64,000 nucleotides of DNA from an uncultured Clostridia bacterium (GCA_934141445.1 CAKPCF010000002.1:34752-98751); one strand, 5' to 3'. Positions 31,665 to 51,542 are shown, counted from the stretch's first letter. The notes: generated from the sequence alone by a model not told the origin. Program-made: numbers and translations.

Positions 31665-31867
31665 CAAAAATAAAATGATAAGTGTATAAGGCTGAAAACA
31701 AGCATTTTAAAGCATTTTGATGTGAGTACATTTGAAATAAAAAGTAAGAAAATGTAAAAAGTACTTAAAAATATAAATACATGAGTAAAAAAAGTGAAAA
31801 AAATGATGAAACCTTGATGTACCAATGTGTACAAGTTGAAAAATAAGCATAAATTCAACTTTGAGAT

Positions 31868-31896
31868 TTGAAAAATAAAAATAAACTGTGTATACT
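31868..31896 (+). promoter_or_regulatory. candidate sigma-A promoter upstream of the MutS-like ORF
   Basis: TTGAAA, 17 nt spacer, TATACT. AT-rich background makes false positives likely. Confidence 0.35.
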
Positions 31897-31965
31897 AATA
31901 GTGATTTGAAAATTATGGCCATATAAAATACAACAAAATTTAATACAAAACAAAAAGGAAATGGA

Positions 31966-32403
31966 ATGGGAAAACATAACTCAAAATTTGAAAAATTTAA
32001 AGAATTAAAGTTTTTAAATCCGAATAAATTGTACATATTTGAGAATGGAGTTTTCTATATAACTTATAATGAAGATGCAGACAAAATGAAAGAAGTATTT
32101 GGCTTTGTAGTTAAGCAAATGGGAAGTATATATAGAAAATGTGAATTTCCAGTACAATATTTTGAAAGATATGAAAAAGCTTTGAAACTAAAGAAAATTG
32201 ACTATGAAGTAGTAGCAGTAACTAAGAAAAAGAAGAAGATAACAGCTGATGAACTAGACACTCAACATAGTGAATGTAGTAACTTGATGCATCTAGAAAT
32301 TCTTCAGATAATTCAAAAAGCAGATTTATCAAAAATAACACCAATTCAAGCTATGAATATTTTATTAGAAATGCAAAATAGAGTAAAAAATTCCAAACTC
32401 TAG
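31966..32403 (+). CDS. MutS-domain-I-like mini-protein (DGR-adjacent, MSL-like)
   Basis: 145 aa. LYIFENGVFYITYNEDADKMKEVFGF...CEFPVQYFERYEKALKLKKIDYEVVAV parallels this window's own MutS N-terminus (ILFYRIGDFYEMFYDDALVASREL...[27 protein letters not shown]). The tail LSKITPIQAMNILLEMQNRV parallels the MutS C-terminus LNELTPIDALNTLAKMKEML. No ATPase domain. Confidence 0.55.
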   Translation: MGKHNSKFEKFKELKFLNPNKLYIFENGVFYITYNEDADKMKEVFGFVVKQMGSIYRKCEFPVQYFERYEKALKLKKIDYEVVAVTKKKKKITADELDTQHSECSNLMHLEILQIIQKADLSKITPIQAMNILLEMQNRVKNSKL

Positions 32404-32465
32404 AACTGTAATTAAAAGCTATTGGTAAAAAAGATAACAAAAAGTAAAAAATATGAAATAAAAAA

Positions 32466-32516
32466 CCTTAAGTGTAGAAATTATAAATACTTTAATTTCT
32501 GTACTTAAGGTTTTTT
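32466..32516 (+). terminator. strong rho-independent terminator after the MutS-like ORF
   Basis: 17-bp stem CCTTAAGTGTAGAAATT / AATTTCTGTACTTAAGG (two G-U pairs), 11-nt loop, then T6. Confidence 0.8.
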
Positions 32517-32815
32517 ATTATTTACTAAAATTCTAACATTGAGCCAGTTTAAAGTCAATATAAAAATATAAAAAGTTGAAAAATATCAGTTTTTTTGTTC
32601 GACAAAAATTGCAAAAATATTGAGTTTTCAACGATTTTGCCCACTTCAATTCTTCCTTAAGTACAGAACTTAACGAAGGATAGAGGTGGTTTTCCCTCTA
32701 GCAAGCAAGACTTTCCGAATAAATTGTATATGCAATTTATTGTGTTTTGTTTTTATGGATTTTTGGAGAAAGGCCTACCCCTTTCTCCAACTTAAATTAT
32801 ACAGAGGAGGAAAAA

Positions 32816-33565
32816 ATGATGAAAAGAAAATTAGAAATTACTTTATTTATCTTTTTAGTAGTGATAGCGGTTTTAACAATAAATAGTGAAGCAGCTTATC
32901 AATCAAGACCAGGTTTTTCAGCTTTAGTAAATACAACATCAAATAGCTTTTTTGAAAATATAAGAAAAATGGAATCTAAAGATGGTCCTATGGGATTAAG
33001 TGCAGAATTTACAGTTACTGATACAGAAGTAAAAGAAACAACAGCATCAAATAATATAGATGTCCATATGATAAAAAATTCTGAATGGGGTGCAGCAGTT
33101 CTTCTTGCAGCATCTGGATATGGTGCAGGAACAGATGGTGAAGCAGGAACATATACAACAGGTTCTAGTAATTATACAGGAATTTACGGTATGGGAAATG
33201 GCAACTGGGAATATACAGCTAGTTATTGTGTACAAGGTGGTTCTACAGCTACAGGAAATTCAAATGTTAGAAGCATATTACATAGCTATGCTAATAGTAA
33301 TTCAAAGTATGTAGATGTATATAGAAATCCAAATAACCAGGTAACGGCAGATTATGATACTTTTGCTAGTAAGAACAATCACATCAAAGGTGATGCACTA
33401 GTTGAAGTTATGGGCTTACACAGCGGCAATTTGTACCTTGTTACTACGGACGTTCCCGTATTCGTACGTGGCAGCGGTGGTGTCTTTGCTTTCTATAGGT
33501 ACTTTGGTTATGGCGACAGCTACTTCACTTCGCGTGCGGTGGCTGTGTGCGGAGCTGGACTTTAA
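32816..33565 (+). CDS. secreted DGR variable (target) protein, C-type-lectin/FGE-like fold inferred
   Basis: ATG at 32816, 5 nt after GAGGAGG; the track ORF start at 32747 lacks an RBS. Signal peptide MMKRKLEITLFIFLVVIAVLTINSEA. Motifs NSEWGAAVLLAASG, GIYGMGNGNWEY and VFVRGSGGVF resemble the EWEYAARGG / GLxDMxGNVWEW / RGGSW blocks of FGE-type DGR targets. The last 47 codons are the VR. Confidence 0.85.
   Translation: MMKRKLEITLFIFLVVIAVLTINSEAAYQSRPGFSALVNTTSNSFFENIRKMESKDGPMGLSAEFTVTDTEVKETTASNNIDVHMIKNSEWGAAVLLAASGYGAGTDGEAGTYTTGSSNYTGIYGMGNGNWEYTASYCVQGGSTATGNSNVRSILHSYANSNSKYVDVYRNPNNQVTADYDTFASKNNHIKGDALVEVMGLHSGNLYLVTTDVPVFVRGSGGVFAFYRYFGYGDSYFTSRAVAVCGAGL
33422..33561 (+). repeat. DGR variable repeat (VR)
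   Basis: 140 bp, offset exactly 201 nt from TR. 125 of 140 positions are identical and all 15 differences lie opposite TR adenines. The 3' 48 bp are invariant and GC-rich. Confidence 0.92.
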
Positions 33566-33571
33566 GCACTG

Positions 33572-33613
33572 CACCTTGTGATTTGAGAGGCGTGTAGAAA
33601 TTCAAATCAGGTG
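33572..33613 (+). other. hairpin immediately 3' of VR (candidate DGR target-recognition stem-loop)
   Basis: CACC-ttg-TGATTTGA ...15 nt... TCAAATCA-GGTG. Starts 11 nt after the VR end. Confidence 0.5.
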
Positions 33614-33622
33614 TTACACTGA

Positions 33623-33762
33623 AGCGGCAATAAGAACCTTGTTACTACGGACAATCCCGTATTCGTACGTGGCAGCGGTGGTGTCTTTGCTTTCAATAGG
33701 AACAATGGTAATAGCAACAGCAACAACACTTCGCGTGCGGTGGCTGTGTGCGGAGCTGGACT
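33623..33762 (+). repeat. DGR template repeat (TR)
   Basis: Non-coding copy of VR. In the VR frame it reads SGNKNLVTTDNPVFVRGSGGVFAFNRNNGNSNSNNTSRAVAVCGAGL, with the AAY-rich codon usage typical of TRs. Confidence 0.92.
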
Positions 33763-33785
33763 CTTGTGTGAAGGTTTTATTTTCT

Positions 33786-33817
33786 AAAAATTTTACTTAT
33801 TTATAAGTAAAATTTTT
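33786..33817 (+). terminator. A/T-rich 14-bp hairpin downstream of TR (terminator-like)
   Basis: AAAAATTTTACTTA-ttta-TAAGTAAAATTTTT. Confidence 0.4.
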
Positions 33818-34082
33818 AAAAGTAATTATAGTGATTTTCATAATAATATAAATTTTAAAATTCGCAGTTTAATATTTAGTAATATATGAAAAAATAAATG
33901 GACCTAAATTTCTTTAATTATGAAAATAAAAGATTTAGGTGGAGCAAAGTTTAAGGACTTTACTGATTAGATTTTTCACACACAAAAGAAGTGTAATTCC
34001 TTCCTTTTTGGTAAAAATTTGAAAGGAGTAGTACAATGCAAGTAAAGGAAACTTGAAAGTGATGTACACATAATTAAATAAA

Positions 34083-34442
34083 ATGGCTAAACAAGATACA
34101 AGATTGATTATATACGAAAGATTAGTAGATTTAATTTTTTATTCTAAAAATTTATTAAAAAAATTTCCAAAATCTGAAAGATTTGATTTATGTGCAGACA
34201 TAAAACAAGCTTTATACAAAGTATTAAGATTAGTAATGTATTCTTGGAAAGAGAAAGATATTGAACAAAGATATCAAAATTTAAAAGAAGCAGATATAGA
34301 AATTTATGTATTAAAAACATTAACAAGATTGTCTTATATGGATAGATATATTACAGAACAAAACTATATGACATGGAATAATCACCTTTCTGAAATAGGA
34401 AAGATGTTAGGTGGGTGGATAAAAACATGTCAAAAAGGGTAA
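34083..34442 (+). CDS. avd: Avd-like accessory variability determinant (four-helix-bundle / 23S rRNA-IVS protein family)
   Basis: 119 aa. LIIYERLVDLIFYSKNLLKKFPKSERFDLCADIKQALYKVLRLV matches the FPK.ER signature of the family. Overlaps the RT start. Confidence 0.8.
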   Translation: MAKQDTRLIIYERLVDLIFYSKNLLKKFPKSERFDLCADIKQALYKVLRLVMYSWKEKDIEQRYQNLKEADIEIYVLKTLTRLSYMDRYITEQNYMTWNNHLSEIGKMLGGWIKTCQKG

Positions 34443-35464
34443 ATAATATATTTTTACAAAAGATAAAATTTAAAAATATATATGCCGCATATAGAAGAGC
34501 ATCAATTCTAAAACATAAAAATAGAGAAGTGATACTGTTTGAAATGGACTTAGCTCAAAATTTATATGATATATTAAAAGATTTATATTTTCAAAGGTAT
34601 AAGCCAGGAATATATCGAAAATTTGTTGTATATGAACCTAAAAGAAGAGAAATAATGTCACTTCCATTTAGAGACAGAGTTGTTCAACAATGGTATGTGG
34701 AAGAATTTATAAGACCAATTTTTATTCCAAAATTGATAGTAGATACTTATGCTTGTATTCCAGGTAGAGGCTTACATCATGCAATTCATAAACTACAATA
34801 TTATATGCAAAAAATGAAAAAAGAAAATGAAGATTTTTATATTTTAAAATGTGATGTTGCAAAATTTTTTAACAATATTCATAAAGATATTTTATATGAA
34901 ATTATAGAAAGAAAAATAAAAGATAAATATTTTTTAGAGTGTACGAAGCATATTTTATTTGATGGAACTTATAAAGTTGGAATACCAATTGGAAATTATA
35001 CTTCACAATTTTTTGCAAATATATATTTGAATGAACTAGACCATTTTGTTAAAGAAAAATTAAAAATTAAATATTATGTTAGATATATGGATGATTTTAT
35101 ATTATTGCTTCCTAATAAAGAAAAGGCTATTGAAATAAGAAAAGAAATAGAAAGCTTTTTAGATACAAGATTAAAATTAGCATTAAATAGAAAAACAAAT
35201 TATTTTAAAAATAAACAAGGAGTAAGTTTTTGTGGGTATCATATTTATGTTCACAAAATTGTTTTACTAAATCAAAACAAAAAGAAAATATACAAAAGAG
35301 TAAAGCATTGGAATGAATTATATGCGAAGGGTGAATTAGATATGTTTGAAGCAGCACAAAGCTTAATAGCATGGATAGGACATGCTAGTGCAGCAGATTC
35401 TTACGAATATATAAATAAGATAAAAAACAAATGTGATTGGTATTACAAAGGAGATATAAAATGA
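34427..35464 (+). CDS. DGR-type reverse transcriptase
   Basis: Motifs RREIMSLPFRDRVVQ, CIPGRGLHHA, LKCDVAKFFNNI, the DGR-diagnostic IGNYTSQFFANIYLNELD, YVRYMDDFILL and GVSFCGYHI. Start is ATG 34427 (or GTG 34415), inside the avd 3' end. Confidence 0.9.
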   Translation: MSKRVNNIFLQKIKFKNIYAAYRRASILKHKNREVILFEMDLAQNLYDILKDLYFQRYKPGIYRKFVVYEPKRREIMSLPFRDRVVQQWYVEEFIRPIFIPKLIVDTYACIPGRGLHHAIHKLQYYMQKMKKENEDFYILKCDVAKFFNNIHKDILYEIIERKIKDKYFLECTKHILFDGTYKVGIPIGNYTSQFFANIYLNELDHFVKEKLKIKYYVRYMDDFILLLPNKEKAIEIRKEIESFLDTRLKLALNRKTNYFKNKQGVSFCGYHIYVHKIVLLNQNKKKIYKRVKHWNELYAKGELDMFEAAQSLIAWIGHASAADSYEYINKIKNKCDWYYKGDIK

Positions 35465-37953
35465 AAGGAAAGAAGGCTAAATTAAGCAATCATCAAGGAA
35501 TCACTCTTATCGCTTTAGTTATTACAATAATAATTATGTTGATTTTAGCAGGAATAAGTTTAAATGCAACGATAGGTGATAATGGAATTATTAGTAAGGC
35601 AAGAGAAGCTAAGTTTAAACAAGCTTTGTCTTCATATAAAGAACAAGCAGATGCTTATGTATTAAATTACAATATGAATAATGACATTGGAATTGGTGAA
35701 GAGTCTACTTTATATTCAGGAGCACTTCGAGAAGCTGGAAAAGAAAATGACACTACTGGAATATACAATGATATATATACGAAGCATTTTAAGGATTTAA
35801 AGAAACTATCAGAAGGTTCTAGTACTGGAACAATTTCAAATACTAGCATTGATGAAGTGATTCCAGATATGGAAAATTACTATAAAAAACATGTTGGCGT
35901 TGAAAATGGAACTATGATGTGGTTTGCTGAAAAAAGAGATGATGAAGAGGTACAATGGGCTTTGGAACTTGGTGTATCAGTATTTATCGAAGGTGTAGGA
36001 AAGGTTTTACCAGATGGAAGCTATCAAATATATTCAAAGGGTGAATATGCAAATACAATGGGAACTTCTGGTACATATTGTGCAGAGCCAGATTTAACAG
36101 GCTTTAACACAGCAACAACATATTACATTGAATATGAATCAGATAATCAAAGCAGTAACTCTGGAAACCCAATTTATTTAAATGTACCAGATAATTGGTA
36201 TGACTATGGTAATCAAAGATGGGCAAATATTGCAACAGTTAATGACTGTCAAATGACATATTGGACATGGATACCAAGATATGTTTATAAAGTAGATGGA
36301 AATTCAATTGATTGTAAATTTGTAAATACATCTAATGTTTGTATTGGTACAGATGGACTTGAAATTGATGTTTCAGACTATATTTTACCAAGTGCATTTA
36401 CATTTGATGGAAAAGAACTTTCTGGAATTTGGGTAAGCAAATATGAAATATCAGAACCAGTACATCCAACAGGATTTTCTGCTACAACAGATAAAGACAG
36501 TATAACAATTCAAAGTGTTACTACAATTGGCTCAAGTACACCAGGTGGAGAAAATCCAATCGGAAAAGATGTAGAAATACATATAAGTGGAAATGGATTT
36601 GATAAAACAATTTCACATGTTGATTTACCATATAAAATTGAAGGTTTGTCACCAGATAAAACATATAAAGTTGAAGTTGAGACACCTACATTTTATGAAT
36701 CTAGAATGACTTTATCAAGAGAACTTACAACACCAGAAGGTACTGTAAATGAAATTGCAAATCCAGACTTTACAGGATTTAATACAGACACTACATATTT
36801 TCTTGAATATGAAGAGGACAATAAAACAGCAAAAATTGGAGAAAAAGTTCAAACAACAGTTGATTCAATTGATACATCAAAATTAGTTGCATCAAATGCT
36901 CCAACAAATTGGTATGATTATACAAAAAAAAGATGGGCAAATATTGCTACAATGACATCTGATGGTAAAGTTGCATATTGGACTTGGGTTCCAAGATATA
37001 AGTATAAAGTTATCGAATCAGATGATACAGTAGATTGTATTTTTGTAAGTAAGAGCAAAACAAATTCTTTATTAGGTTCATTAACTGATAAATATGTAAT
37101 TCCATCAGCATTTACTTGGGATAGCAAAGAACTTTCTGGAATATGGGTTCTAAAATATGAAGTTACTCTTGCAAAAGAACCAACAAGTTTTGTTGTACAA
37201 GCAGGTTCTAATGAAATAAAAATAACAAGTGTTTCATACACAGGTTCAGGAGGAAATTTACCAACTGATGGATATACATTGAATGTTACTGACAAAGCAA
37301 CAAATAGCAAAGTAATAAATAATTCAAGTATAAGTATTGGTTCAAATGGATACACAATTACAGGTTTGTCTGCTGGACATACTTATGATATAGAGCTAAC
37401 AGCCCCAATGGTATATAATGATGCAAATGGCAGTAAGCAATATAAGAAATTGACCAGAACTGTTTCAACAATAGGAAATGGTGAAGGTACAGCTAATGTG
37501 CCAAATTTAGATGGATTCAGTAAAGAAAATACATATTATGTTGTATATAGTAGTAATAAGCAAAAAGCTTTATTAGGAGATAAAGTTGAATATGATTCAA
37601 ACGGTAATCCTACAAATGCTCCAACAGACTGGTATGATTATGGCGCAAAGAGTTGGGCAAATATTGTTACAATTACAGCAGATGAAGGTAAGAATTTGAA
37701 TTTGACAAAAGGTATGGAAATTGGCTCAATAAATACAACATATTCAAAGATGGCTATGTTTGTTTGGGTACCTAGATATGAATATAAAGTAGATGAAACT
37801 TCTGATTCAACAGATATAATATTTATTTCAGCTAGTAAGAAAAATGCAGATAGCGGATATACAATTCCATCAGCATTTACTTGGGGAGACAAGGAACTTT
37901 CAGGGTATTGGGTATCTAAATATGAAGTGACAGAAATAAATAATGAGAATTAA
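35461..37953 (+). CDS. 830-aa pilin-like-anchored surface protein with three repeat modules separated by FN3-like spacers
   Basis: The ATG overlaps the RT stop (ATGA, 35461-35464) and follows the RBS AAAGGAG. N-terminus MKGKKAKLSNHQG/ITLIALVITIIIMLILAGISL is prepilin-like: Gly at -1, but no Phe at +1 and no Glu at +5. The module ...NWYDYxxxxWANI..T...YWTW(I/V)PRYxYKV...D(C/I)xF(V/I)...IPSAFTWxxKELSGxWVSKYE(I/V) occurs three times (36085-36453, 36763-37167, 37501-37932). Confidence 0.7.
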   Translation: MKGKKAKLSNHQGITLIALVITIIIMLILAGISLNATIGDNGIISKAREAKFKQALSSYKEQADAYVLNYNMNNDIGIGEESTLYSGALREAGKENDTTGIYNDIYTKHFKDLKKLSEGSSTGTISNTSIDEVIPDMENYYKKHVGVENGTMMWFAEKRDDEEVQWALELGVSVFIEGVGKVLPDGSYQIYSKGEYANTMGTSGTYCAEPDLTGFNTATTYYIEYESDNQSSNSGNPIYLNVPDNWYDYGNQRWANIATVNDCQMTYWTWIPRYVYKVDGNSIDCKFVNTSNVCIGTDGLEIDVSDYILPSAFTFDGKELSGIWVSKYEISEPVHPTGFSATTDKDSITIQSVTTIGSSTPGGENPIGKDVEIHISGNGFDKTISHVDLPYKIEGLSPDKTYKVEVETPTFYESRMTLSRELTTPEGTVNEIANPDFTGFNTDTTYFLEYEEDNKTAKIGEKVQTTVDSIDTSKLVASNAPTNWYDYTKKRWANIATMTSDGKVAYWTWVPRYKYKVIESDDTVDCIFVSKSKTNSLLGSLTDKYVIPSAFTWDSKELSGIWVLKYEVTLAKEPTSFVVQAGSNEIKITSVSYTGSGGNLPTDGYTLNVTDKATNSKVINNSSISIGSNGYTITGLSAGHTYDIELTAPMVYNDANGSKQYKKLTRTVSTIGNGEGTANVPNLDGFSKENTYYVVYSSNKQKALLGDKVEYDSNGNPTNAPTDWYDYGAKSWANIVTITADEGKNLNLTKGMEIGSINTTYSKMAMFVWVPRYEYKVDETSDSTDIIFISASKKNADSGYTIPSAFTWGDKELSGYWVSKYEVTEINNEN

Positions 37954-37962
37954 GGTGAATTT

Positions 37963-38217
37963 ATGCAAAAAGTAATTGAATTTATAAAAGAAAATAAAAA
38001 AATTGTAATTATTATATGTATTTTATTGGTTGTAGTATTTTCTATTGTAAAAATAAACAAGAAAAAGAGAATATCTGAAAATATAGCAAAAGAAAATGAG
38101 CAATTAAGAATTGAAGAAGAGGCAAGAAATAATAGACAATATAATTCTGATATGTTAGAAAATAATATAGAAGAAGATATTGGTACATCAGAAGATGATA
38201 TACAAATGTTCAATTAA
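37963..38217 (+). CDS. small single-pass membrane protein
   Basis: 84 aa, TM segment IVIIICILLVVVFSIV, acidic tail. Last gene before the terminator. Confidence 0.5.
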   Translation: MQKVIEFIKENKKIVIIICILLVVVFSIVKINKKKRISENIAKENEQLRIEEEARNNRQYNSDMLENNIEEDIGTSEDDIQMFN

Positions 38218-38224
38218 AATATAA

Positions 38225-38263
38225 AAAAGAAGGTGGTAATTTAAAATGTTACCACCTATTTTT
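38225..38263. terminator. bidirectional terminator between the DGR block and sigK
   Basis: aaaaaaga-AGGTGGTAA-tttaaaatg-TTACCACCT-atttttt. Confidence 0.8.
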
Positions 38264-38961
38264 TATTCTTTAATTTCTTTAGCCAATTTTCCAATTGCCT
38301 TTGTTTCAATTCTTGAAACATAAGAGCGACTGATATCTAACATTTCTGCAATCTCTTTTTGAGTTTTAGGTTTATCACCTTTTAAACCAAATCTTAATTC
38401 AATTATAGTTTTTTCTCTATTTTTTAAAACTGTTTTAATTTTTTCATATAAATTTTTAACTTTTAATTTTAAATCTACCTCATCTTCAACATTTTTTTCA
38501 TTTATTTCAAGAATTTCTTGAAGAGTAACAACATTATCATCTTTATCTTTTCCAACTGGTTCATTTAGGAAAACTTCAGAATTTCTTTTTTTATTACTTC
38601 TTAGAAACATCAATATTTCGTTTTCAATACATCTTGCTGTATATGTAGCTAATTTTATATTTTTTTCTGTATTAAAACTATTGATTCCTTTTATTAAACC
38701 AATAGTACCAATTGAAATTAAATCATCAGCATCAATATTTGTATTATTGTATTTTTTTGCAATATGTGCAACTAATCTTAAATTATGTTCAATTAAAATA
38801 TTTCTAGCAGATTCACTACCAGATAACATTTCTTCTAAATACTTTTTTTCATCTTCAGCACTTAAAGGCTCTGGAAATAAACTACTGCTTTGAATATAGC
38901 CAAAACCAAAAATCATTTCAGACAGAAAATTCCAAAAAGTTTCTAATGTAAAGACAAGCAT
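38263..38961 (-). CDS. sigK: sporulation sigma factor K precursor (pro-sigma-K), uninterrupted
   Basis: Hydrophobic pro-sequence, then FPEPLSAEDEKKYLE...NILIEHNLRLVAHIAKKY...DLISIGTIGLIKGINSF...KLATYTARCIENEILMFLR...ISRSYVSRIE. Close to B. subtilis SigK as recalled from memory. Confidence 0.85.
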   Translation of the reverse strand: MLVFTLETFWNFLSEMIFGFGYIQSSSLFPEPLSAEDEKKYLEEMLSGSESARNILIEHNLRLVAHIAKKYNNTNIDADDLISIGTIGLIKGINSFNTEKNIKLATYTARCIENEILMFLRSNKKRNSEVFLNEPVGKDKDDNVVTLQEILEINEKNVEDEVDLKLKVKNLYEKIKTVLKNREKTIIELRFGLKGDKPKTQKEIAEMLDISRSYVSRIETKAIGKLAKEIKE

Positions 38962-45627: not shown

Positions 45628-48243
45628 ATGCCAGAACAATTATCACCAATGATGCAAAGTTATTTAGCAACAAAGGAACAATACAAAGATTGCATCTTGT
45701 TTTATAGAATAGGAGATTTTTATGAAATGTTCTATGATGATGCTTTAGTCGCATCAAGAGAACTAGAAATTACATTAACTGGAAAAGCTTGTGGAACAGA
45801 GGAAAAAGCACCAATGTGTGGTGTTCCGTTTCATGCAGCAGAATTATATATTTCAAGACTTATATCAAAGGGATATAAAGTAGCAATTTGTGAGCAACTT
45901 GAAGATCCAAAACAGGCTAAAGGACTTGTGAAAAGAGATGTTATAAGAGTTGTTACACCAGGTACTGTTATAGAAACAAATATGCTAGAAGAAAAAAAGA
46001 ACAACTATATAATGGGAATTGTAAAAAAAGGATTATATTATGGTGTTGCTATTTGTGATATTAGTACAGGTGATTTTTATGCTACTCAAATTAAACTTGC
46101 AGACAATAATTTTGAAAAACTATTAGATGAATATGCTAGATATGTTCCAGCTGAAATTGTTGTAAATGAAGCTATGGGAATGTCAACAAAAGAATTAGAA
46201 ATAATGAAAGATAGAAACAATACATTTGTTACTATTAGAGAAGATAAATTTTTTAATGAAGATGATACAATACTTTTAAGATTATACAAAATGGAAGATG
46301 ACTTTGGTAAAGAGAAAACTGATTTGAAAAATGATAAAATTGCAGTACAAGCTATAAATGGATTATTAAATTATTTTTCAGAAACACAAAAAGTCAAACT
46401 TGAACATATAAATAGAATTAGATTATATGAAGTAAAGAAATTCATGGCATTAGATATAAATGCAAGAAGAAGTTTGGAACTTACTGAAAGAATGAGAGAT
46501 AAATCTAAAAGAGGAACTTTAATTTGGGTTTTAGATAAAACATCAACATCAATGGGAGGAAGACTTTTAAGAAGATGGATAAATGATCCTTTATTAGATG
46601 TAAAAGAAATTAACGATAGACTTGGAGCTGTTAAAGAATTTAAGAATAATGTAATGTTACGAGGTGAACTTGCTGAAATTCTAAAAAAAGTTTATGATAT
46701 TGAAAGATTAGCAGGAAAAATATCTTATGGCAATGCTAATGCAAGAGATTTAATCTCTCTTAAAAATTCACTTTCACATTTACCTGAATTAAAAGAACTT
46801 TTATCAATGGCAGAGTCAGATTTGCTTAAAAAAATATATTCAAATTTAGATGAATTAAAAGATATATTTGAGCTTATAGATGAAGCTATTGTTGAAGACC
46901 CACCAATAAGTATAAAAGAGGGTGGAATTATAAAAAGTGGATATTCACAAGATATTGATGAATATAGAGAAGCTTCAACAGATGGAAAAAGATGGATTGT
47001 TGAACTAGAAGCAAAGGAAAGAGAAGAAACTGGTATAAAAAATTTAAAAGTTGGATATACTAGAGTATTTGGATATTATATAGAAGTTACAAAATCTTTC
47101 CTAAATCAAGTTCCAGAAGGTAGATATGTAAGAAAGCAAACTTTAACTGGTGGTGAAAGATTTATAACTGAAGAATTAAAACAAATTGAAGGCAAAATAT
47201 TAGGTGCAGAAGAAAAGGTTGTTGCATTAGAATATAATGAGTTTACCAAAATAAGAGATGAAATTGGAAAAAATATAGCAAGACTTCAAACTTCAGCTTC
47301 AGCTATTGCGATGGCAGATGTATTAAATAGTTTAGCTATTGTAGCAGAAGATAATAATTATGTTTGCCCAGAAGTTGATGAATCTGGTGAGATTATAATA
47401 AAAGAAGGTAGACATCCTGTAATTGAACAAATGATTGATAGTGGAAGTTTTGTTCAAAATGATACATACTTAAACAAAGAAGAAAATAGAGTAGCAATTA
47501 TTACAGGTCCTAATATGGCTGGTAAATCAACATTTATGAGACAGGTTGCTTTAATTACTCTAATGGCTCAAATAGGTAGCTTTGTACCAGCAACTGAAGC
47601 AAAGATAGGAATTGTAGATAAAATCTTTACAAGAGTAGGGGCTTCTGATGATTTAAGTAGTGGTCAAAGTACATTTATGGTTGAAATGTCAGAAGTAGCT
47701 AATATATTAAAAGAGGCAACTCCAAATAGTTTAGTTATATTAGATGAAATTGGTAGAGGAACATCAACTTATGATGGACTATCAATAGCATGGGCTGTTG
47801 CAGAATATATTGCAGATAAAGAAAAAGTTGGCTGTAAAACTTTATTTGCAACACATTACCATGAACTTATAGAACTTGAAGATAAAATAGATGGAATTAA
47901 AAATTACTCTGTAGCTGTAAAAGAAAAAGGTGAAGATGTAATTTTCTTGAGAAAGATTATAGAAGGTGGAACAGATGAAAGCTATGGTATCCATGTTGCA
48001 AAACTTGCAGGTGTTCCAAAACAAGTAGTAACAAGAGCCAATAAGATTTTACAATCACTTGAAAAAGGTGGCGTTAAAGTTAAAGAAGAAAAAGAAGATA
48101 AAAAACAAGTTGAAGGTCAATTTGATTTCTTTAATATAACTTTAGCTAATATTGCTACTGAATTAGATAAGGTCAACTTAAATGAATTAACACCAATAGA
48201 TGCTTTAAATACTCTTGCTAAAATGAAAGAAATGTTAAAATAA
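45628..48243 (+). CDS. mutS: DNA mismatch repair protein MutS
   Basis: SPMMQSYL...GDFYEMF (Phe-x-Glu), Walker A ITGPNMAGKSTFMRQ, DEIGRGTSTYDG and TLFATHYHEL. Confidence 0.95.
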   Translation: MPEQLSPMMQSYLATKEQYKDCILFYRIGDFYEMFYDDALVASRELEITLTGKACGTEEKAPMCGVPFHAAELYISRLISKGYKVAICEQLEDPKQAKGLVKRDVIRVVTPGTVIETNMLEEKKNNYIMGIVKKGLYYGVAICDISTGDFYATQIKLADNNFEKLLDEYARYVPAEIVVNEAMGMSTKELEIMKDRNNTFVTIREDKFFNEDDTILLRLYKMEDDFGKEKTDLKNDKIAVQAINGLLNYFSETQKVKLEHINRIRLYEVKKFMALDINARRSLELTERMRDKSKRGTLIWVLDKTSTSMGGRLLRRWINDPLLDVKEINDRLGAVKEFKNNVMLRGELAEILKKVYDIERLAGKISYGNANARDLISLKNSLSHLPELKELLSMAESDLLKKIYSNLDELKDIFELIDEAIVEDPPISIKEGGIIKSGYSQDIDEYREASTDGKRWIVELEAKEREETGIKNLKVGYTRVFGYYIEVTKSFLNQVPEGRYVRKQTLTGGERFITEELKQIEGKILGAEEKVVALEYNEFTKIRDEIGKNIARLQTSASAIAMADVLNSLAIVAEDNNYVCPEVDESGEIIIKEGRHPVIEQMIDSGSFVQNDTYLNKEENRVAIITGPNMAGKSTFMRQVALITLMAQIGSFVPATEAKIGIVDKIFTRVGASDDLSSGQSTFMVEMSEVANILKEATPNSLVILDEIGRGTSTYDGLSIAWAVAEYIADKEKVGCKTLFATHYHELIELEDKIDGIKNYSVAVKEKGEDVIFLRKIIEGGTDESYGIHVAKLAGVPKQVVTRANKILQSLEKGGVKVKEEKEDKKQVEGQFDFFNITLANIATELDKVNLNELTPIDALNTLAKMKEMLK

Positions 48244-48498: not shown

Positions 48499-50544
48499 AT
48501 GGAGAAAAAAGTGGAGAGCAAAAAAAACAATAGGATAAATTCTGTTTCAAGAAAAAAATTAAATTTTAGCATTATTGTTTTAGACATTATTGCTTTCATT
48601 TTTATTTACTTTTTAACACCAAAGTTATTAAATTTTCCTGTTAATTCAATGAATTTGAAATTTCAAAAAGAAACGATAGGACATACTTTTTTAGAAATTT
48701 ATTTTGTAATATTTATTTTAATTGTTGCGGTACAATTATTTGTATTAAAATATTTATCAAAAAATATCAATTTATATCTGGAAAAATATTTTCATAGAAA
48801 AGAAATAGACTACAGTATAGTTTTAAGAGTAAGAAATGATTGTTTAAATGTACCATATAGATTTTTAGAGATTCAATGGGGAATAATGGCTTTTCTAGCA
48901 TTTAGTGTAATTACTTTTTGTATTATATTTGGAAAAAGCTTTATAACCAATTTTGATAAAATATCTTTTGCATTAGTGAGATTTGGAACTATTATTTTAG
49001 CATTTTGGCTTGTACTTTCTATAGCAATATTGGAAATCATACAAAACTATATGCAAAAAGTTCTAAAATTAACATATAAACAAACAAACAAATTTGAAAA
49101 AATTGGACATAGAGTAGAAAATACAACATCTTTGCTTTTACAATTATTACCTTTAATTTTTTCATTACTAATATTGTTTGCAGTTTTAGCTTATGCAAAA
49201 ACAATTCAAGTAAAGGCTGATTCTTTGGCTAATTACTATAAATTATATATGAATTTAATAGACTTTAAAGAAGATAATGAAATAACAAAAGATAGTCTTT
49301 TAAATAAATTAAATACAATTCCATTACTTCAAAATGGTGATACAGCATTTGTTATAGACCCAGAAAACAATTCATATACAACTAATTACAATAGTAGTAT
49401 CAGTAATTTTACAATTAAATATAGAGATTATTTCTTTGGAAGAAAAGGAAATAAACAAAATACAGTTGTGGATTTTACAGAAATTGATGGAATTCTTTAT
49501 GAAAGTTTTGGAATAGATGAACAATTATATTGTCAGAAAATTTTTGATGAAAATGGATTACCTTGGTATATAGGATATAAATTTTCTATTTCAGATAGAG
49601 ATTCAATGTATTTCTATATAACTTGTATAAGTGCTATGTTTATAGCTTATGCAATAATTGTATATATATGGGCTAAAAATAATTCTTTAAATGCGAAAAG
49701 AATTGCAGACAATATGGAACAAATTTTACAGAAAGAAGATTTATCAAAAGAAAATTACTTACCTATTTTGTCAAATGATGAATTTGGAGATGTTGCATAT
49801 AACTACAATCATATACAAATGAAAATGGCTAGACAACAAGATATTATGTTAAAGCAGGAACAACTTTCTGTTTTAGGTGAAATGGCTGGTGGTATGGCAC
49901 ATGATATAAATACACCGATTTCTTCTATAAATACAGCAATAACAATGCTTGCAAGAAAAACAACAGATGAAAGAGAACAAATCATTTTAAAGAATATGCA
50001 AGTTTCAACAGATAGAATAATAAATATTGTTACAAGTATGAGAAATCAAGTTCGTAATATGGGAAGCAATGAAAAAGAAACTTTTAGCTTAAATATGATG
50101 GTAACTGATTTAAATGTAATAATTCAAAATGAATTGAAAAAATCTGGTTGTACATTTACACAAGAAATAAAAGAGGAAATAAATATATATGGTGAAAGAA
50201 CTAAACTTGGACAAGTTTTAACAAATCTTGTTGTAAATGGAATTCAAGCTTATAGTTCTAATGAGAAAAAGGGAAATGTTACTTTAAGAGCAAAAACAGA
50301 AGAAAATGATATATGCTTAATAGAAATAATTGATGAGGCTGGTGGAATACCTGAAAAAGTTCAACCATATATCTTTAATAATATAATGACAACAAAAGGT
50401 TCTAAAGGAACTGGTTTAGGTTTATATTTGGCTTCAACTGTTATAAAAGGTGTTTATGAAGGTACAATAGATTTTGAAACTGAAGTGGGTAAAGGAACTA
50501 AATTTATTATAAGAATACCAATGAAAATGGAGGAGAAAAAATAA
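48499..50544 (+). CDS. membrane sensor histidine kinase
   Basis: Multiple TM segments, H-box GGMAHDINTPIS, N-box NLVVNGIQA and G-box GTGLGLYLAS. Confidence 0.85.
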   Translation: MEKKVESKKNNRINSVSRKKLNFSIIVLDIIAFIFIYFLTPKLLNFPVNSMNLKFQKETIGHTFLEIYFVIFILIVAVQLFVLKYLSKNINLYLEKYFHRKEIDYSIVLRVRNDCLNVPYRFLEIQWGIMAFLAFSVITFCIIFGKSFITNFDKISFALVRFGTIILAFWLVLSIAILEIIQNYMQKVLKLTYKQTNKFEKIGHRVENTTSLLLQLLPLIFSLLILFAVLAYAKTIQVKADSLANYYKLYMNLIDFKEDNEITKDSLLNKLNTIPLLQNGDTAFVIDPENNSYTTNYNSSISNFTIKYRDYFFGRKGNKQNTVVDFTEIDGILYESFGIDEQLYCQKIFDENGLPWYIGYKFSISDRDSMYFYITCISAMFIAYAIIVYIWAKNNSLNAKRIADNMEQILQKEDLSKENYLPILSNDEFGDVAYNYNHIQMKMARQQDIMLKQEQLSVLGEMAGGMAHDINTPISSINTAITMLARKTTDEREQIILKNMQVSTDRIINIVTSMRNQVRNMGSNEKETFSLNMMVTDLNVIIQNELKKSGCTFTQEIKEEINIYGERTKLGQVLTNLVVNGIQAYSSNEKKGNVTLRAKTEENDICLIEIIDEAGGIPEKVQPYIFNNIMTTKGSKGTGLGLYLASTVIKGVYEGTIDFETEVGKGTKFIIRIPMKMEEKK

Positions 50545-51542
50545 TGAGTATTGAAAATGAAGCAGCAAATGTCAACATTTTATTAGTTGATGATGATGAG
50601 AACTACTTGGAGATGACAAAAATGTATTTAGAGGATAATGGTATGAAAATTACTACTTATTCAAATCCAACAGAAGCATTAGAAGTGTGCAAAAAGAAAA
50701 AAATTGATATTGTTTTATTAGATTATTTTATGCCTCAAATGACTGGCGAAGAATTTGTAAAAGAATTAAGGTCTGTAAATAATACAACTTTAGTAATTTT
50801 ACAAACAGGTTTTGCTGAGAAAAAACCACCAATAGAAATGCTTACAAATCTTGATATTCAAGGATATTATGATAAGACTAAAGAAATCGACGAACTTTTA
50901 TTGCTAACACTATCTGCAATAAAAACAATTAAATTGATGAAATTAAGTCAAAAGCAAGAAATAAAAATTGATTTGTTAAATTATAAAAAACAATTTTTAG
51001 GTGATTTAATAGTTGGATTAGTAAATGAAGCTAAGGACCAATTATTTGCAATAAGTATTGCTAATAAATCTATTGAAGAAGAATCTAATTTATTTAAAGA
51101 TGAAAATGGAGTAATTTCTAGAGCAAATAATAAATTAGGTGAATTATTTGAAACAATCAACTTTGAAAGTATTGAACATGCAACAGCAGGCGAGATAATA
51201 AATGCAATCAATATTTTATTAAAAAACAAAAAGAGTTCAGAGGGAATTCTTATAGATTATAAAATTGATACAAATGATGTTGATAAAATAGTATTTTCAG
51301 ATGGTGTTGATAGTTTAATTTATATAATAGTTGAAACAGTAAATTATTTCTTAACCAAAGACATAAAAAATGTAGAAATTGCATTTGAACAAGATGAAGA
51401 AAAATGCTATATAAAAATATTAAATTCAACAACATATACAAAAGAATTTATTAAAACTATAGTTTTAATTTTATCAGAGAATACTCAAATAGGAATTGAT
51501 ATTAAAGATGGTAAAATTACTTTAGCAGTACCAAAAGTATAA
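50544..51542 (+). CDS. response regulator: receiver domain + non-DNA-binding C-terminal domain of unknown type
   Basis: ILLVDDDENY...DIVLLDYFMPQMTGEE...ILQTGFAE...GYYDK. The ~200-aa C-terminus has no HTH motif I recognise. The start overlaps the kinase stop. Confidence 0.65.
   Translation: MSIENEAANVNILLVDDDENYLEMTKMYLEDNGMKITTYSNPTEALEVCKKKKIDIVLLDYFMPQMTGEEFVKELRSVNNTTLVILQTGFAEKKPPIEMLTNLDIQGYYDKTKEIDELLLLTLSAIKTIKLMKLSQKQEIKIDLLNYKKQFLGDLIVGLVNEAKDQLFAISIANKSIEEESNLFKDENGVISRANNKLGELFETINFESIEHATAGEIINAINILLKNKKSSEGILIDYKIDTNDVDKIVFSDGVDSLIYIIVETVNYFLTKDIKNVEIAFEQDEEKCYIKILNSTTYTKEFIKTIVLILSENTQIGIDIKDGKITLAVPKV

What the first reader, a model, noticed from the sequence alone, without database searches (positions are those of the whole stretch)
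31966..32403. MutS-domain-I-like mini-protein at the head of the DGR block
The 145-aa ORF aligns by eye to the mismatch-binding domain I of this window's own MutS, and its last ~30 residues align to the MutS C-terminal helix (ITPIQAMNILLEMQ versus LTPIDALNTLAKMK). It lacks the connector, clamp and ATPase domains. The Phe-x-Glu mismatch motif GDFYE is changed to GVFYI, so Phe is kept and Glu is lost. Mutagenic retrohoming has to get A-to-N mismatched cDNA/DNA intermediates past mismatch repair, so a truncated MutS mimic next to a DGR could be a modulator or decoy. As I recall, a MutS-like (MSL) accessory ORF has been noted in a subset of DGRs in large surveys, without functional study; I cannot verify that here. 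A strong terminator (32466-32516) separates it from the target gene.
Basis: partly seen in the sequence, partly recalled or inferred. Interest (0 to 1): 0.65.

Follow-up and report, generated by a model that had tools for sequence, protein, structure and literature searches.

The report
MutS-like (Msl) accessory protein of a DGR

Summary
ORF 31966-32403 matches Pfam MutS_I (E 6e-8). Its model folds as MutS domain I: the top 50 PDB matches are all MutS/MSH. Its last ~40 residues are homologous to the MutS C-terminal helix-loop-helix (profile E 1.5e-11). In 45 relatives the mismatch-wedge Phe is invariant and the Glu is always lost.

The gene is under purifying selection (dN/dS 0.11). It lies inside a 6.6-kb island (msl, target, TR, avd, RT, pilin-like gene) that is absent as a block from a close relative. 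The DGR is active: two otherwise identical strains differ at 20 positions, all in the VR at TR adenines.

The protein belongs to a family of more than 200 clusters of mini-proteins. In 65 of 80 species the gene lies within 2.2 kb of a DGR RT, and some members are fused to Avd.

This is the MSL accessory gene class defined by Wu et al. 2018, so it is a new member of a known kind. Its function is untested in the papers I could search. The best guess (about 0.4) is that it shields the mismatched cDNA/VR heteroduplex from host MutS. The MutS-derived C-terminal module, the Avd fusions and the orphan copies are not mentioned in those papers.

The parts
31868..31896 (+). Promoter-like site upstream of msl (TTGAAA-17-TATACT)
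   Evidence: Consensus scan, 10 of 12 matches. The number of such sites in the region is no higher than in shuffles, so this is only a candidate.
31966..32403 (+). msl: 145-aa MutS-like DGR accessory protein (whole ORF including stop)
   Evidence: dN/dS is 0.11 against an 83%-identical orthologue.
31966..32217 (+). Msl N-domain (aa 1-84): truncated MutS domain I fold. G28-V29-F30-Y31-I32 corresponds to MutS G-D-F-Y-E.
   Evidence: Pfam MutS_I. AF2 pLDDT is 97-98 over most of it. Foldseek top 50 are all MutS/MSH. F30 is invariant in 45/45 and position 32 is never acidic.
32218..32283 (+). Variable, Lys-rich, disordered linker (aa 85-106)
   Evidence: Low pLDDT of 56-75. Variable in length and sequence. 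dN/dS about 0.43.
32284..32400 (+). Msl C-terminal helix-loop-helix (aa 107-145), homologous to the MutS C-terminal dimerisation/tetramerisation domain
   Evidence: Helices 107-118 and 126-143. MutS C-terminal profile E 1.5e-11, and 37 of 45 family members score E<0.01. BLASTP against the window's own MutS gives E 0.001.
32457..32519 (.). 27-bp-stem hairpin with an A-run before and a T-run after: terminator-like, possibly bidirectional, between msl and the target gene
   Evidence: dG -28.4 kcal/mol, z -9.9.
32816..33565 (+). DGR target gene (249 aa, N-terminal signal/TM-like segment, no Pfam hit)
   Evidence: The gene is called at the same offset in relatives.
33422..33561 (+). Variable repeat (VR) at the 3' end of the target gene
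   Evidence: 20 strain differences fall only here, all at TR-adenine positions.
33623..33762 (+). Template repeat (TR)
   Evidence: Identical in the window, L250 and L251; one substitution in L254.
34083..34442 (+). avd (accessory variability determinant)
   Evidence: Pfam bAvd 1e-23; NCBIfam DivGenRetAVD 1e-26, above its cut-off.
34415..35464 (+). DGR reverse transcriptase. The mechanical ORF starts at GTG 34415; relatives' gene calls correspond to a start at 34427.
   Evidence: Pfam RVT_1 3e-17.
35437..37953 (+). ~830-aa protein with a prepilin-type N-terminal motif and three internal repeats. It overlaps the RT stop and is part of the same island.
   Evidence: Absent together with msl and the DGR in L172.
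45628..48243 (+). Host MutS (871 aa, domains I-V plus the C-terminal helix-loop-helix): the presumed evolutionary source type and possible target
   Evidence: NCBIfam mutS1 equivalog.

Best explanation
Identity (confidence about 0.9): this is an Msl/MSL protein, the MutS-like accessory protein of a subset of diversity-generating retroelements. It consists of MutS domain I (first ~85 aa), a disordered basic linker, and the MutS C-terminal helix-loop-helix. It therefore looks like a mutS gene that lost residues ~90-830. It is encoded as its own transcription unit at the head of an active chromosomal DGR island inserted between recN and sigK in a gut Clostridia bacterium.

Mechanism (inferred, confidence about 0.4): after the RT-Avd complex makes adenine-mutagenised cDNA and the cDNA pairs with the VR, the heteroduplex carries many mismatches and is a substrate for host MutS/MutL. 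Msl oligomerises through its helix-loop-helix, as that module does in MutS. It binds the distorted duplex with the retained Phe wedge. Having no ATPase, clamp or MutL-binding parts, it cannot license repair. It therefore occupies the mismatches and shields them until replication fixes the new VR sequence. Replacing the discriminating Glu with Ile would make binding less mismatch-type-specific and tighter to DNA.

Shown here: homology, fold, conservation, DGR linkage and DGR activity. Inferred: DNA binding, oligomerisation and MMR antagonism.
For: - Domain homology: N-domain; C-terminal module.
- Phe is invariant and Glu is never kept in 45 relatives. By established knowledge, MSH2-type subunits that do not contact the mismatch lose the Phe, so its invariance suggests function rather than fold.
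- Purifying selection acts on both modules but not on the linker.
- The family has 204 clusters at 50% identity, nearly all 100-150 aa.
- 65 of 80 species-level loci have a DGR RT within 2.2 kb and 63 have Avd, against 1-2 of 79 control recN loci.
- MutS_I-Avd fusion proteins exist: P0125 and P0147.
- msl is present or absent together with the DGR at the recN-sigK site.
- The DGR is active in nature.
- Literature: MSL is a recognised accessory class. Delta-mutS raises retrohoming 5-10-fold, with an all-or-nothing repair pattern. MMR suppression is used to make DGRs work in E. coli. The MutS C-terminal domain is a helix-loop-helix dimer/tetramer module.
Against: - No experiment on any Msl exists in the searched literature.
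- Most DGRs lack Msl yet face MMR, and MutS is reported as not required for retrohoming in the Bordetella phage DGR.
- In Bacteroides the three Msl-bearing DGRs were the low-activity ones, although this was attributed to low transcription.
- The motif is GIFYI, hydrophobic on both faces, so the Phe face could be a protein interface rather than a DNA wedge.
- 8 of 45 relatives have a weak or absent C-terminal module.
- 11 of 80 loci are orphan msl genes with no RT nearby.
- Fusion to Avd fits a role inside the RNP as well as it fits shielding.
Confidence: 0.4

Rival explanations
1. Msl is a nucleic-acid-binding subunit of the RT-Avd-TR RNA machinery with a role that does not involve mismatch repair. 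Possible roles are target-site or cDNA 3'-end recognition, stabilising cDNA annealing at VR, or priming. The MutS domain I fold would be reused as a generic DNA/RNA or protein-binding module, and the helix-loop-helix would give oligomerisation or docking.
For: - Natural fusions of the N-domain to Avd, in which Avd replaces the helix-loop-helix.
- msl is most often the first gene of an msl-avd-RT operon, or directly abuts the RT.
- Wu et al. report RTs with C-terminal MutS_I extensions.
- The mismatch-discriminating Glu is lost in all 45 relatives, and the motif is hydrophobic.
- MSL always co-occurs with avd.
Against: The one residue that makes domain I a mismatch sensor, Phe, is invariant. 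MMR measurably restricts DGRs, so there is a selective need that a MutS fragment would be well placed to fill. In this window msl is a separate transcription unit with its own terminator. Orphan copies exist far from any RT.
Confidence: 0.3
2. Msl acts on host MutS itself through the shared C-terminal helix-loop-helix. It co-assembles with the MutS C-terminal domain. This could be a dominant-negative effect that disturbs MutS dimer/tetramer function. Alternatively it could be an adaptor that brings MutS to the heteroduplex so that repair is directed toward the cDNA strand.
For: The C-terminal module is clearly homologous to the MutS domain that mediates dimer stability and tetramerisation. The invariant T-P of the loop corresponds to the T838-P839 region at the E. 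coli tetramer interface. The HLH is under strong purifying selection. Msl diverges faster than its neighbouring genes between lineages, 54% against 86-87%, as an interaction partner under co-evolution might.
Against: The window Msl C-terminus resembles Lachnospiraceae-type MutS C-termini more than its own host's MutS, which ranks 55 of 80. The clamp-binding QxSLF motif just upstream in MutS is not kept. Some relatives lack the module or replace it with Avd. Msl has no MutL-interacting domains.
Confidence: 0.2
3. The ORF is a decaying mutS fragment or an unrelated small chromosomal gene that only happens to lie next to the DGR.
For: A strong hairpin separates it from the target gene. Orphan homologues sit among housekeeping genes.
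Against: dN/dS is 0.11, with both modules constrained. The fold is predicted with high confidence. There are more than 200 sequence clusters of the same size. 65 of 80 loci are DGR-linked, against 1-2 of 79 controls. The gene is absent together with the DGR in the closest relative lacking the island.
Confidence: 0.03

Closest known systems
MSL (MutS-like) accessory proteins of DGRs, Architecture D of Wu et al. 2018 (PMC5758913); Msl of Bacteroides pilus DGRs (bioRxiv 10.1101/2024.11.15.621889); one in the Legionella DGR
   Same: It is a small protein: 145 aa, against a reported range of 112-283. It is homologous to the MutS mismatch-recognition domain. It is encoded in a DGR cassette that also has avd and no HRDC gene. 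Its function has not been tested experimentally.
   Different: In this window msl is a separate unit upstream of the target gene, behind a strong terminator. In the related Clostridia loci scanned here the commonest arrangement is an msl-avd-RT operon. The window protein is basic (pI 9.3), against a reported neutral mean. Direct sequence comparison with the published MSL set was not possible because the supplement is not held. The C-terminal MutS-derived helix-loop-helix is not mentioned in the papers read.
Bacterial MutS (MutS1), domain I and the C-terminal domain (E. coli residues ~1-115 and 823-853; PDB 1E3M, 1EWQ, 2OK2, 3ZLJ)
   Same: The N-domain fold and the G-x-F-Y motif with the stacking Phe are shared. 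So is the terminal helix-loop-helix with the LTPxxALN signature, which in MutS dimerises and tetramerises.
   Different: Domains II-V (connector, lever, clamp, ATPase) are missing, as is the last strand of domain I. Glu38 is replaced by Ile, and Asp35 by Val here (mostly Ile in the family). There is no beta-clamp motif. It therefore cannot hydrolyse ATP, form a sliding clamp or recruit MutL.
Engineered MMR suppression in DGR/retron recombineering (dominant-negative MutL E32K; delta-mutS)
   Same: The proposed outcome is the same: mismatched cDNA/target heteroduplexes survive. It is used because MMR limits editing.
   Different: Those tools act on MutL or remove MutS globally. Msl would be a natural, element-encoded, MutS-derived factor. 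Whether it acts locally or at all on MMR is unproven.
Stand-alone MutS_I mini-proteins of phages and multi-MutS_I polyvalent proteins
   Same: They share the truncated domain I fold without an ATPase: BFVD hits of 74-153 aa, and P0084/P0184 with four MutS_I domains plus ArdC-N.
   Different: They are not known to be DGR-linked. Whether they have the C-terminal module or keep the Glu was not examined. This Msl family is rare in viral contigs: 2 loci in IMG/VR against 148 in genomes.

Membership tests
MSL (MutS-like) DGR accessory protein (Wu et al. 2018) | Small protein (reported 112-283 aa) | tested here: met
   145 aa. Relatives are 100-155 aa.
MSL (MutS-like) DGR accessory protein (Wu et al. 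2018) | Detectable homology to MutS (mismatch-recognition domain) | tested here: met
   Pfam MutS_I E 6e-8, above the gathering score. 45 of 45 relatives hit MutS_I. Foldseek top 50 are all MutS/MSH.
MSL (MutS-like) DGR accessory protein (Wu et al. 2018) | Encoded within or next to a DGR cassette (RT, TR/VR with adenine-specific mismatches) | tested here: met
   VR and TR differ only at TR adenines. RT and Avd are present. msl lies inside the island that is absent as a block in L172. 65 of 80 related loci have an RT within 2.2 kb.
MSL (MutS-like) DGR accessory protein (Wu et al. 2018) | Co-occurs with avd, not with HRDC | tested here: met
   avd is present at 34083-34442. No HRDC hit among the five island proteins scanned against Pfam.
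MSL (MutS-like) DGR accessory protein (Wu et al. 2018) | Sequence relationship to the published MSL set (e.g. Legionella, Bacteroides Msl) | not testable with these tools
   The supplementary sequences are not held. No Legionella or Bacteroides Msl sequence was available to align.
MSL (MutS-like) DGR accessory protein (Wu et al. 2018) | Contributes to mutagenic retrohoming | not testable with these tools
   No functional data for any MSL in the searched literature. The DGR itself is active.
MutS (MutS1) mismatch-repair protein | Domains I-V including the ABC ATPase (MutS_V) | tested here: not met
   Only MutS_I is found. The window's real MutS has all five domains.
MutS (MutS1) mismatch-repair protein | Phe-X-Glu mismatch-recognition motif | tested here: not met
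   Phe is kept and Glu is replaced by Ile. The position is never acidic in 45 relatives.
MutS (MutS1) mismatch-repair protein | C-terminal helix-loop-helix oligomerisation domain | tested here: met
   Profile E 1.5e-11. Two predicted helices, 107-118 and 126-143. Oligomerisation itself was not tested.

The most novel reading that the evidence does not exclude
Msl is a natural, retroelement-encoded inhibitor of mismatch repair built from MutS's own two ends. The domain I wedge sits on the mismatches, and the MutS-type helix-loop-helix lets it oligomerise or plug into host MutS. The DGR would thus carry its own way to keep MMR away from the VR heteroduplex. Orphan copies and phage or polyvalent-protein MutS_I modules would then be a wider class of mobile-element anti-MMR factors.
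Probability: 0.3. Interest if true: 0.75.

Novelty: new member of a known kind. Interest (0 to 1): 0.45.

Why it matters
How DGR cDNA replaces the VR, and how a heteroduplex with a dozen or more mismatches survives mismatch repair, is still open. Recent work shows that MutS cuts DGR output 5-10-fold, and that engineered DGR systems need MMR suppression.

If Msl is the element's own answer to MMR, it would explain one of the four accessory gene classes. It could also give DGR- and retron-based mutagenesis tools a small, portable, possibly locus-restricted alternative to dominant-negative MutL.

Three findings make this directly testable:
- the two-module anatomy (domain I plus the MutS C-terminal oligomerisation domain);
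- the Avd fusions;
- an active, compact chromosomal example with a clean empty-site comparison.

As a finding in this window it is a well-supported annotation, not a discovery of a new kind.

Tried and rejected
- AF2 with the shallow 19-sequence alignment gave an unusable model (pLDDT 42). It worked only after adding distant relatives.
- Sequence search of PDB did not recover MutS convincingly. With the whole family profile MutS scored E 0.37. With the C-terminal profile the top hits were spurious dystroglycan matches and the E. coli C-terminal domain was not found. The C-terminal homology was instead shown with a profile of Clostridia MutS C-termini.
A subfamily alignment, A6, was used instead.
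- The closest 65 homologues all sit in the same syntenic recN-msl-DGR locus, so they were not counted as independent co-occurrence evidence.
- Host-specific co-evolution of the Msl and MutS C-termini was considered. It was not supported, because the host's own MutS ranks 55 of 80. Only two same-genome pairs were available, so covariation could not be tested.
- The idea that msl is unrelated because a terminator separates it from the target gene was rejected by the empty-site comparison.
- The supplementary MSL sequences of Wu et al. are not held.
- I looked for inverted repeats that would explain the sigK inversion and found none convincing.

Full report
**1. The observation**

The ORF at 31966..32403 (+, 145 aa) is real. 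It has a plausible ribosome-binding site (AAAGGA, 6 nt before the ATG).

N-terminal part:
- Pfam gives a single hit, MutS_I (PF01624), at E 6.2e-8 and 33.3 bits, against a gathering score of 20.6.
- A first AF2 run on a shallow alignment failed (pLDDT 42).
- With a 45-sequence alignment that includes distant relatives, the model has pLDDT 88.7. It shows an alpha/beta domain at aa 5-83, a disordered Lys-rich linker at aa 84-106, and a helix-loop-helix with helices 107-118 and 126-143.
- In Foldseek against PDB, all 50 best matches are MutS, MSH2, MSH3 or MSH6 chains. They align over 80-86 columns of domain I at rmsd 1.6-2.9 A.
- Only the first ~85 residues of the ~115-residue canonical domain I are present.

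C-terminal part:
- The window encodes a complete MutS at 45628..48243, with all five Pfam domains and a match to the NCBIfam mutS1 equivalog.
- BLASTP aligns Msl aa 106-141 to the last 36 residues of that MutS (33% identity, E 0.001).
- For a stronger test I collected the C-termini of 79 MutS proteins of other Clostridia. I built an HMM of the last 70 residues from 78 of them (one truncated sequence dropped, the window's own MutS left out).
- I searched this HMM against a set of 45 Msl relatives, all window ORFs and 900 shuffled Msl sequences. The window Msl scores E 1.5e-11 (40.8 bits). 37 of 45 relatives score E<0.01. The best decoy scores 0.17.
- The alignment covers both helices and the LTPxxALN signature. 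The beta-clamp motif (QxSLF) just upstream in MutS is not kept.

The motif:
- GDFYE in MutS corresponds to G28-V29-F30-Y31-I32 in Msl.
- Across 45 relatives at 21-58% identity, the Phe is invariant. The Glu position is I/L/V in 37 and never acidic. The Asp position is mostly Ile.

The hairpin at 32457-32519 has 27-bp arms, -28.4 kcal/mol and z -9.9. It is flanked by an A-run and a T-run.

**2. The surroundings**

The DGR is genuine:
- VR 33422-33561 lies at the 3' end of a 249-aa target gene. TR is at 33623-33762. They differ only at TR adenines.
- Avd is at 34083-34442 (NCBIfam DivGenRetAVD, above its cut-off). The RT is at 34415-35464.
- An ~830-aa protein with a prepilin-type N-terminus and three internal repeats overlaps the RT stop.

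The DGR is active in nature. A contig from another sample (L250) is identical to the window over 4200 bp except for 20 positions. All 20 lie in the VR, at TR-adenine positions. The TR is unchanged.

**3. Does msl belong to the DGR?**

The 65 closest homologues (50-100% identity) all lie in the same syntenic locus: recN, msl, target, avd, RT, pilin-like gene, sigK. That is one inherited locus, not independent evidence. Three independent lines settle the question.

(a) Empty site. I scanned 80 recN loci of related species.
- Only the window's own species and L171 carry msl. L171 also carries the target, avd, the RT and the pilin-like gene.
- In L172 (RecN 81% identical), recN is followed after 128 bp by sigK, the radical-SAM gene, prmC and whiA.
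- The whole block, corresponding to window ~31665-38262, is missing there. msl is therefore inside the insertion/deletion unit.

(b) Distant relatives.
- A profile search of 1.8 billion representative proteins finds 204 clusters at E<0.001. Nearly all are 100-150 aa, and many align over the whole profile.
- A subfamily alignment retrieved 80 loci from different species genomes, mostly gut Clostridia MAGs.
- 65 of the 80 have a DGR-type RT within 2.2 kb of msl, and 63 have Avd.
- The comparison figure is 1 DGR RT (plus 1 weak RT hit) in 79 control recN loci.
- The commonest arrangement is msl-avd-RT on one strand, with avd starting 0-56 bp after msl. Convergent arrangements and arrangements where msl abuts the RT also occur.

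(c) Gene fusions. P0125 (237 aa) and P0147 (227 aa) are MutS_I-bAvd fusions. In them the Avd domain takes the place of the helix-loop-helix.

Selection:
- dN/dS is 0.11 against an 83%-identical orthologue.
- By module it is about 0.06 for the N-domain, 0.05 for the helix-loop-helix and 0.43 for the linker.

Counter-current facts:
- 11 of the 80 loci have an intact msl but no RT or Avd in the flanks held (no RT or Avd found downstream in any of them; 5 loci also have ~10 kb of upstream flank, and in the other 6 the upstream flank is only 0.6-4.4 kb). They sit next to housekeeping genes such as the spoVA operon or ileS.
- Between the window and L171, Msl is only 54% identical, while RecN, Avd and RT are 86-87% identical.
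- The family is rare in viral contigs: 2 loci.

**4. What is known**

- Wu et al. 2018 (PMC5758913) defined MSL (MutS-like) as one of four DGR accessory gene classes. It was found in 16 of 372 DGRs, at 112-283 aa, with near-neutral pI, always with avd and never with HRDC, and was called Architecture D. One example is in the Legionella DGR. The paper also noted three RTs with C-terminal MutS_I extensions.
- A Bacteroides study (bioRxiv 10.1101/2024.11.15.621889) notes Msl in three pilus DGRs. It shows that deleting mutS raises retrohoming 5-10-fold with an unchanged mutation pattern ("all-or-nothing" repair). That experiment used an element lacking Msl. The Msl-bearing elements had low activity, which was attributed to low transcription.
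- E. coli reconstitutions add dominant-negative MutL or delete mutS, and cite the MutS-like homologues as the rationale.
- None of the papers found tests Msl itself.
- The MutS C-terminal domain (E. coli residues 823-853) is a helix-loop-helix that dimerises and tetramerises and stabilises the dimer.
- I found no mention that MSL proteins carry this module.

**5. Mechanism**

The anatomy reads as a mutS gene that kept its two ends. The most likely function (about 0.4) is local protection of the densely mismatched cDNA/VR heteroduplex:
- the protein oligomerises through the helix-loop-helix;
- it binds distorted duplex through the retained Phe wedge;
- it cannot license repair, because the ATPase, clamp and MutL-binding parts are absent.

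The loss of Glu fits this. It is established (recalled here, not re-read) that Glu38 contributes to mismatch discrimination and to authorising repair. E38 mutants of E. coli MutS still crystallise on a G:T mismatch, and those structures appear among the fold matches (1wb9, 1wbb, 1wbd).

Two rivals remain open:
- An MMR-independent role as a nucleic-acid-binding subunit of the RT-Avd particle (about 0.3). This is favoured by the Avd and RT fusions and by the hydrophobic GIFYI motif.
- Direct co-assembly with host MutS through the shared C-terminal module (about 0.2). This is weakened because the window Msl C-terminus is closer to Lachnospiraceae MutS than to its own host's MutS, which ranks 55 of 80.

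A pseudogene or bystander reading is effectively excluded.

**6. Verdict**

Details that appear to go beyond the papers I could read:
- the MutS-derived C-terminal oligomerisation module and its conservation;
- the strict Phe-kept, Glu-lost pattern across the family;
- the MutS_I-Avd fusions;
- the orphan copies;
- the clean empty-site evidence, with proof of recent DGR activity at this locus.

Interest is moderate (0.45). The kind is known, but its function is an open question that is easy to test and relevant to current DGR engineering.

Noticed in passing
window 33431-33553 (VR) compared with L250, L251, L254: Strains from different samples are identical over 4.2 kb except for 20 substitutions (22 in L254 plus 2 elsewhere). 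All 20 lie in the VR at TR-adenine positions, which is direct evidence of recent mutagenic retrohoming. Two Logan contigs (L252, L253) break inside the VR.
   Followed up: yes
window 38263-38961 (sigK, minus strand): The sporulation sigma factor gene sigK lies on the minus strand in the window and in L007-L010. It lies on the plus strand in L003-L006, L171 and L172, so the gene is inverted between close relatives. No convincing flanking inverted repeats were found.
   Followed up: partly
window 35437-37953: An ~830-aa ORF overlaps the RT stop codon. It has a prepilin-type N-terminal methylation motif, a weak fn3 hit and three ~240-aa internal repeats, each ending in IPSAFTW..KELSG.WVSKYE. It is part of the DGR island but carries no VR. 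It may be a pilus or pseudopilus partner of the variable protein.
   Followed up: partly
window 31665-38262 compared with L172 10994-11122: The whole DGR island (msl to orf84, about 6.6 kb) is an insertion between recN and sigK. The closest relative lacking it has only a 128-bp spacer there. No integrase or obvious mobility gene lies within the island.
   Followed up: partly
P0084 (2323 aa) and P0184 (2087 aa), from the representative search: These are giant proteins with four MutS_I domains each, plus DUF285 repeats and an ArdC N-terminal (anti-restriction, ssDNA-binding) domain. They may be polyvalent proteins of conjugative elements or phages that use MutS domain I modules.
   Followed up: no
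P0125, P0147, P0103: There are natural fusions of the Msl N-domain to Avd (P0125, P0147) and to a Cro/C1-type HTH domain (P0103).
   Followed up: partly
L121, L145, L159, L164, L168 and six others: These loci have an intact msl homologue with no RT or Avd in the flanks held (~10 kb downstream in most; upstream flank short in six of them). The genes sit among housekeeping genes (GH18/spoVA operon; ileS/sortase). Whether a DGR exists elsewhere in those genomes is unknown.
   Followed up: partly
window 31966-32403 compared with L171 4854-5243: Msl is only ~54% identical between two lineages whose RecN, Avd and RT are 86-87% identical and whose target protein is 74% identical. Divergence is concentrated in the linker and helix-loop-helix. 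This suggests fast evolution or replacement of msl.
   Followed up: partly
BFVD hits A0A8S5PPT8 (153 aa), A0A8S5PL02 (74 aa), A0A8S5L9N2 (84 aa): Stand-alone MutS domain I mini-proteins also occur in uncultured gut phages. Their context was not examined.
   Followed up: no
window 48499-51542: The genes directly downstream of mutS are a histidine kinase and a response regulator, not mutL. No mutL was looked for elsewhere in the window.
   Followed up: no
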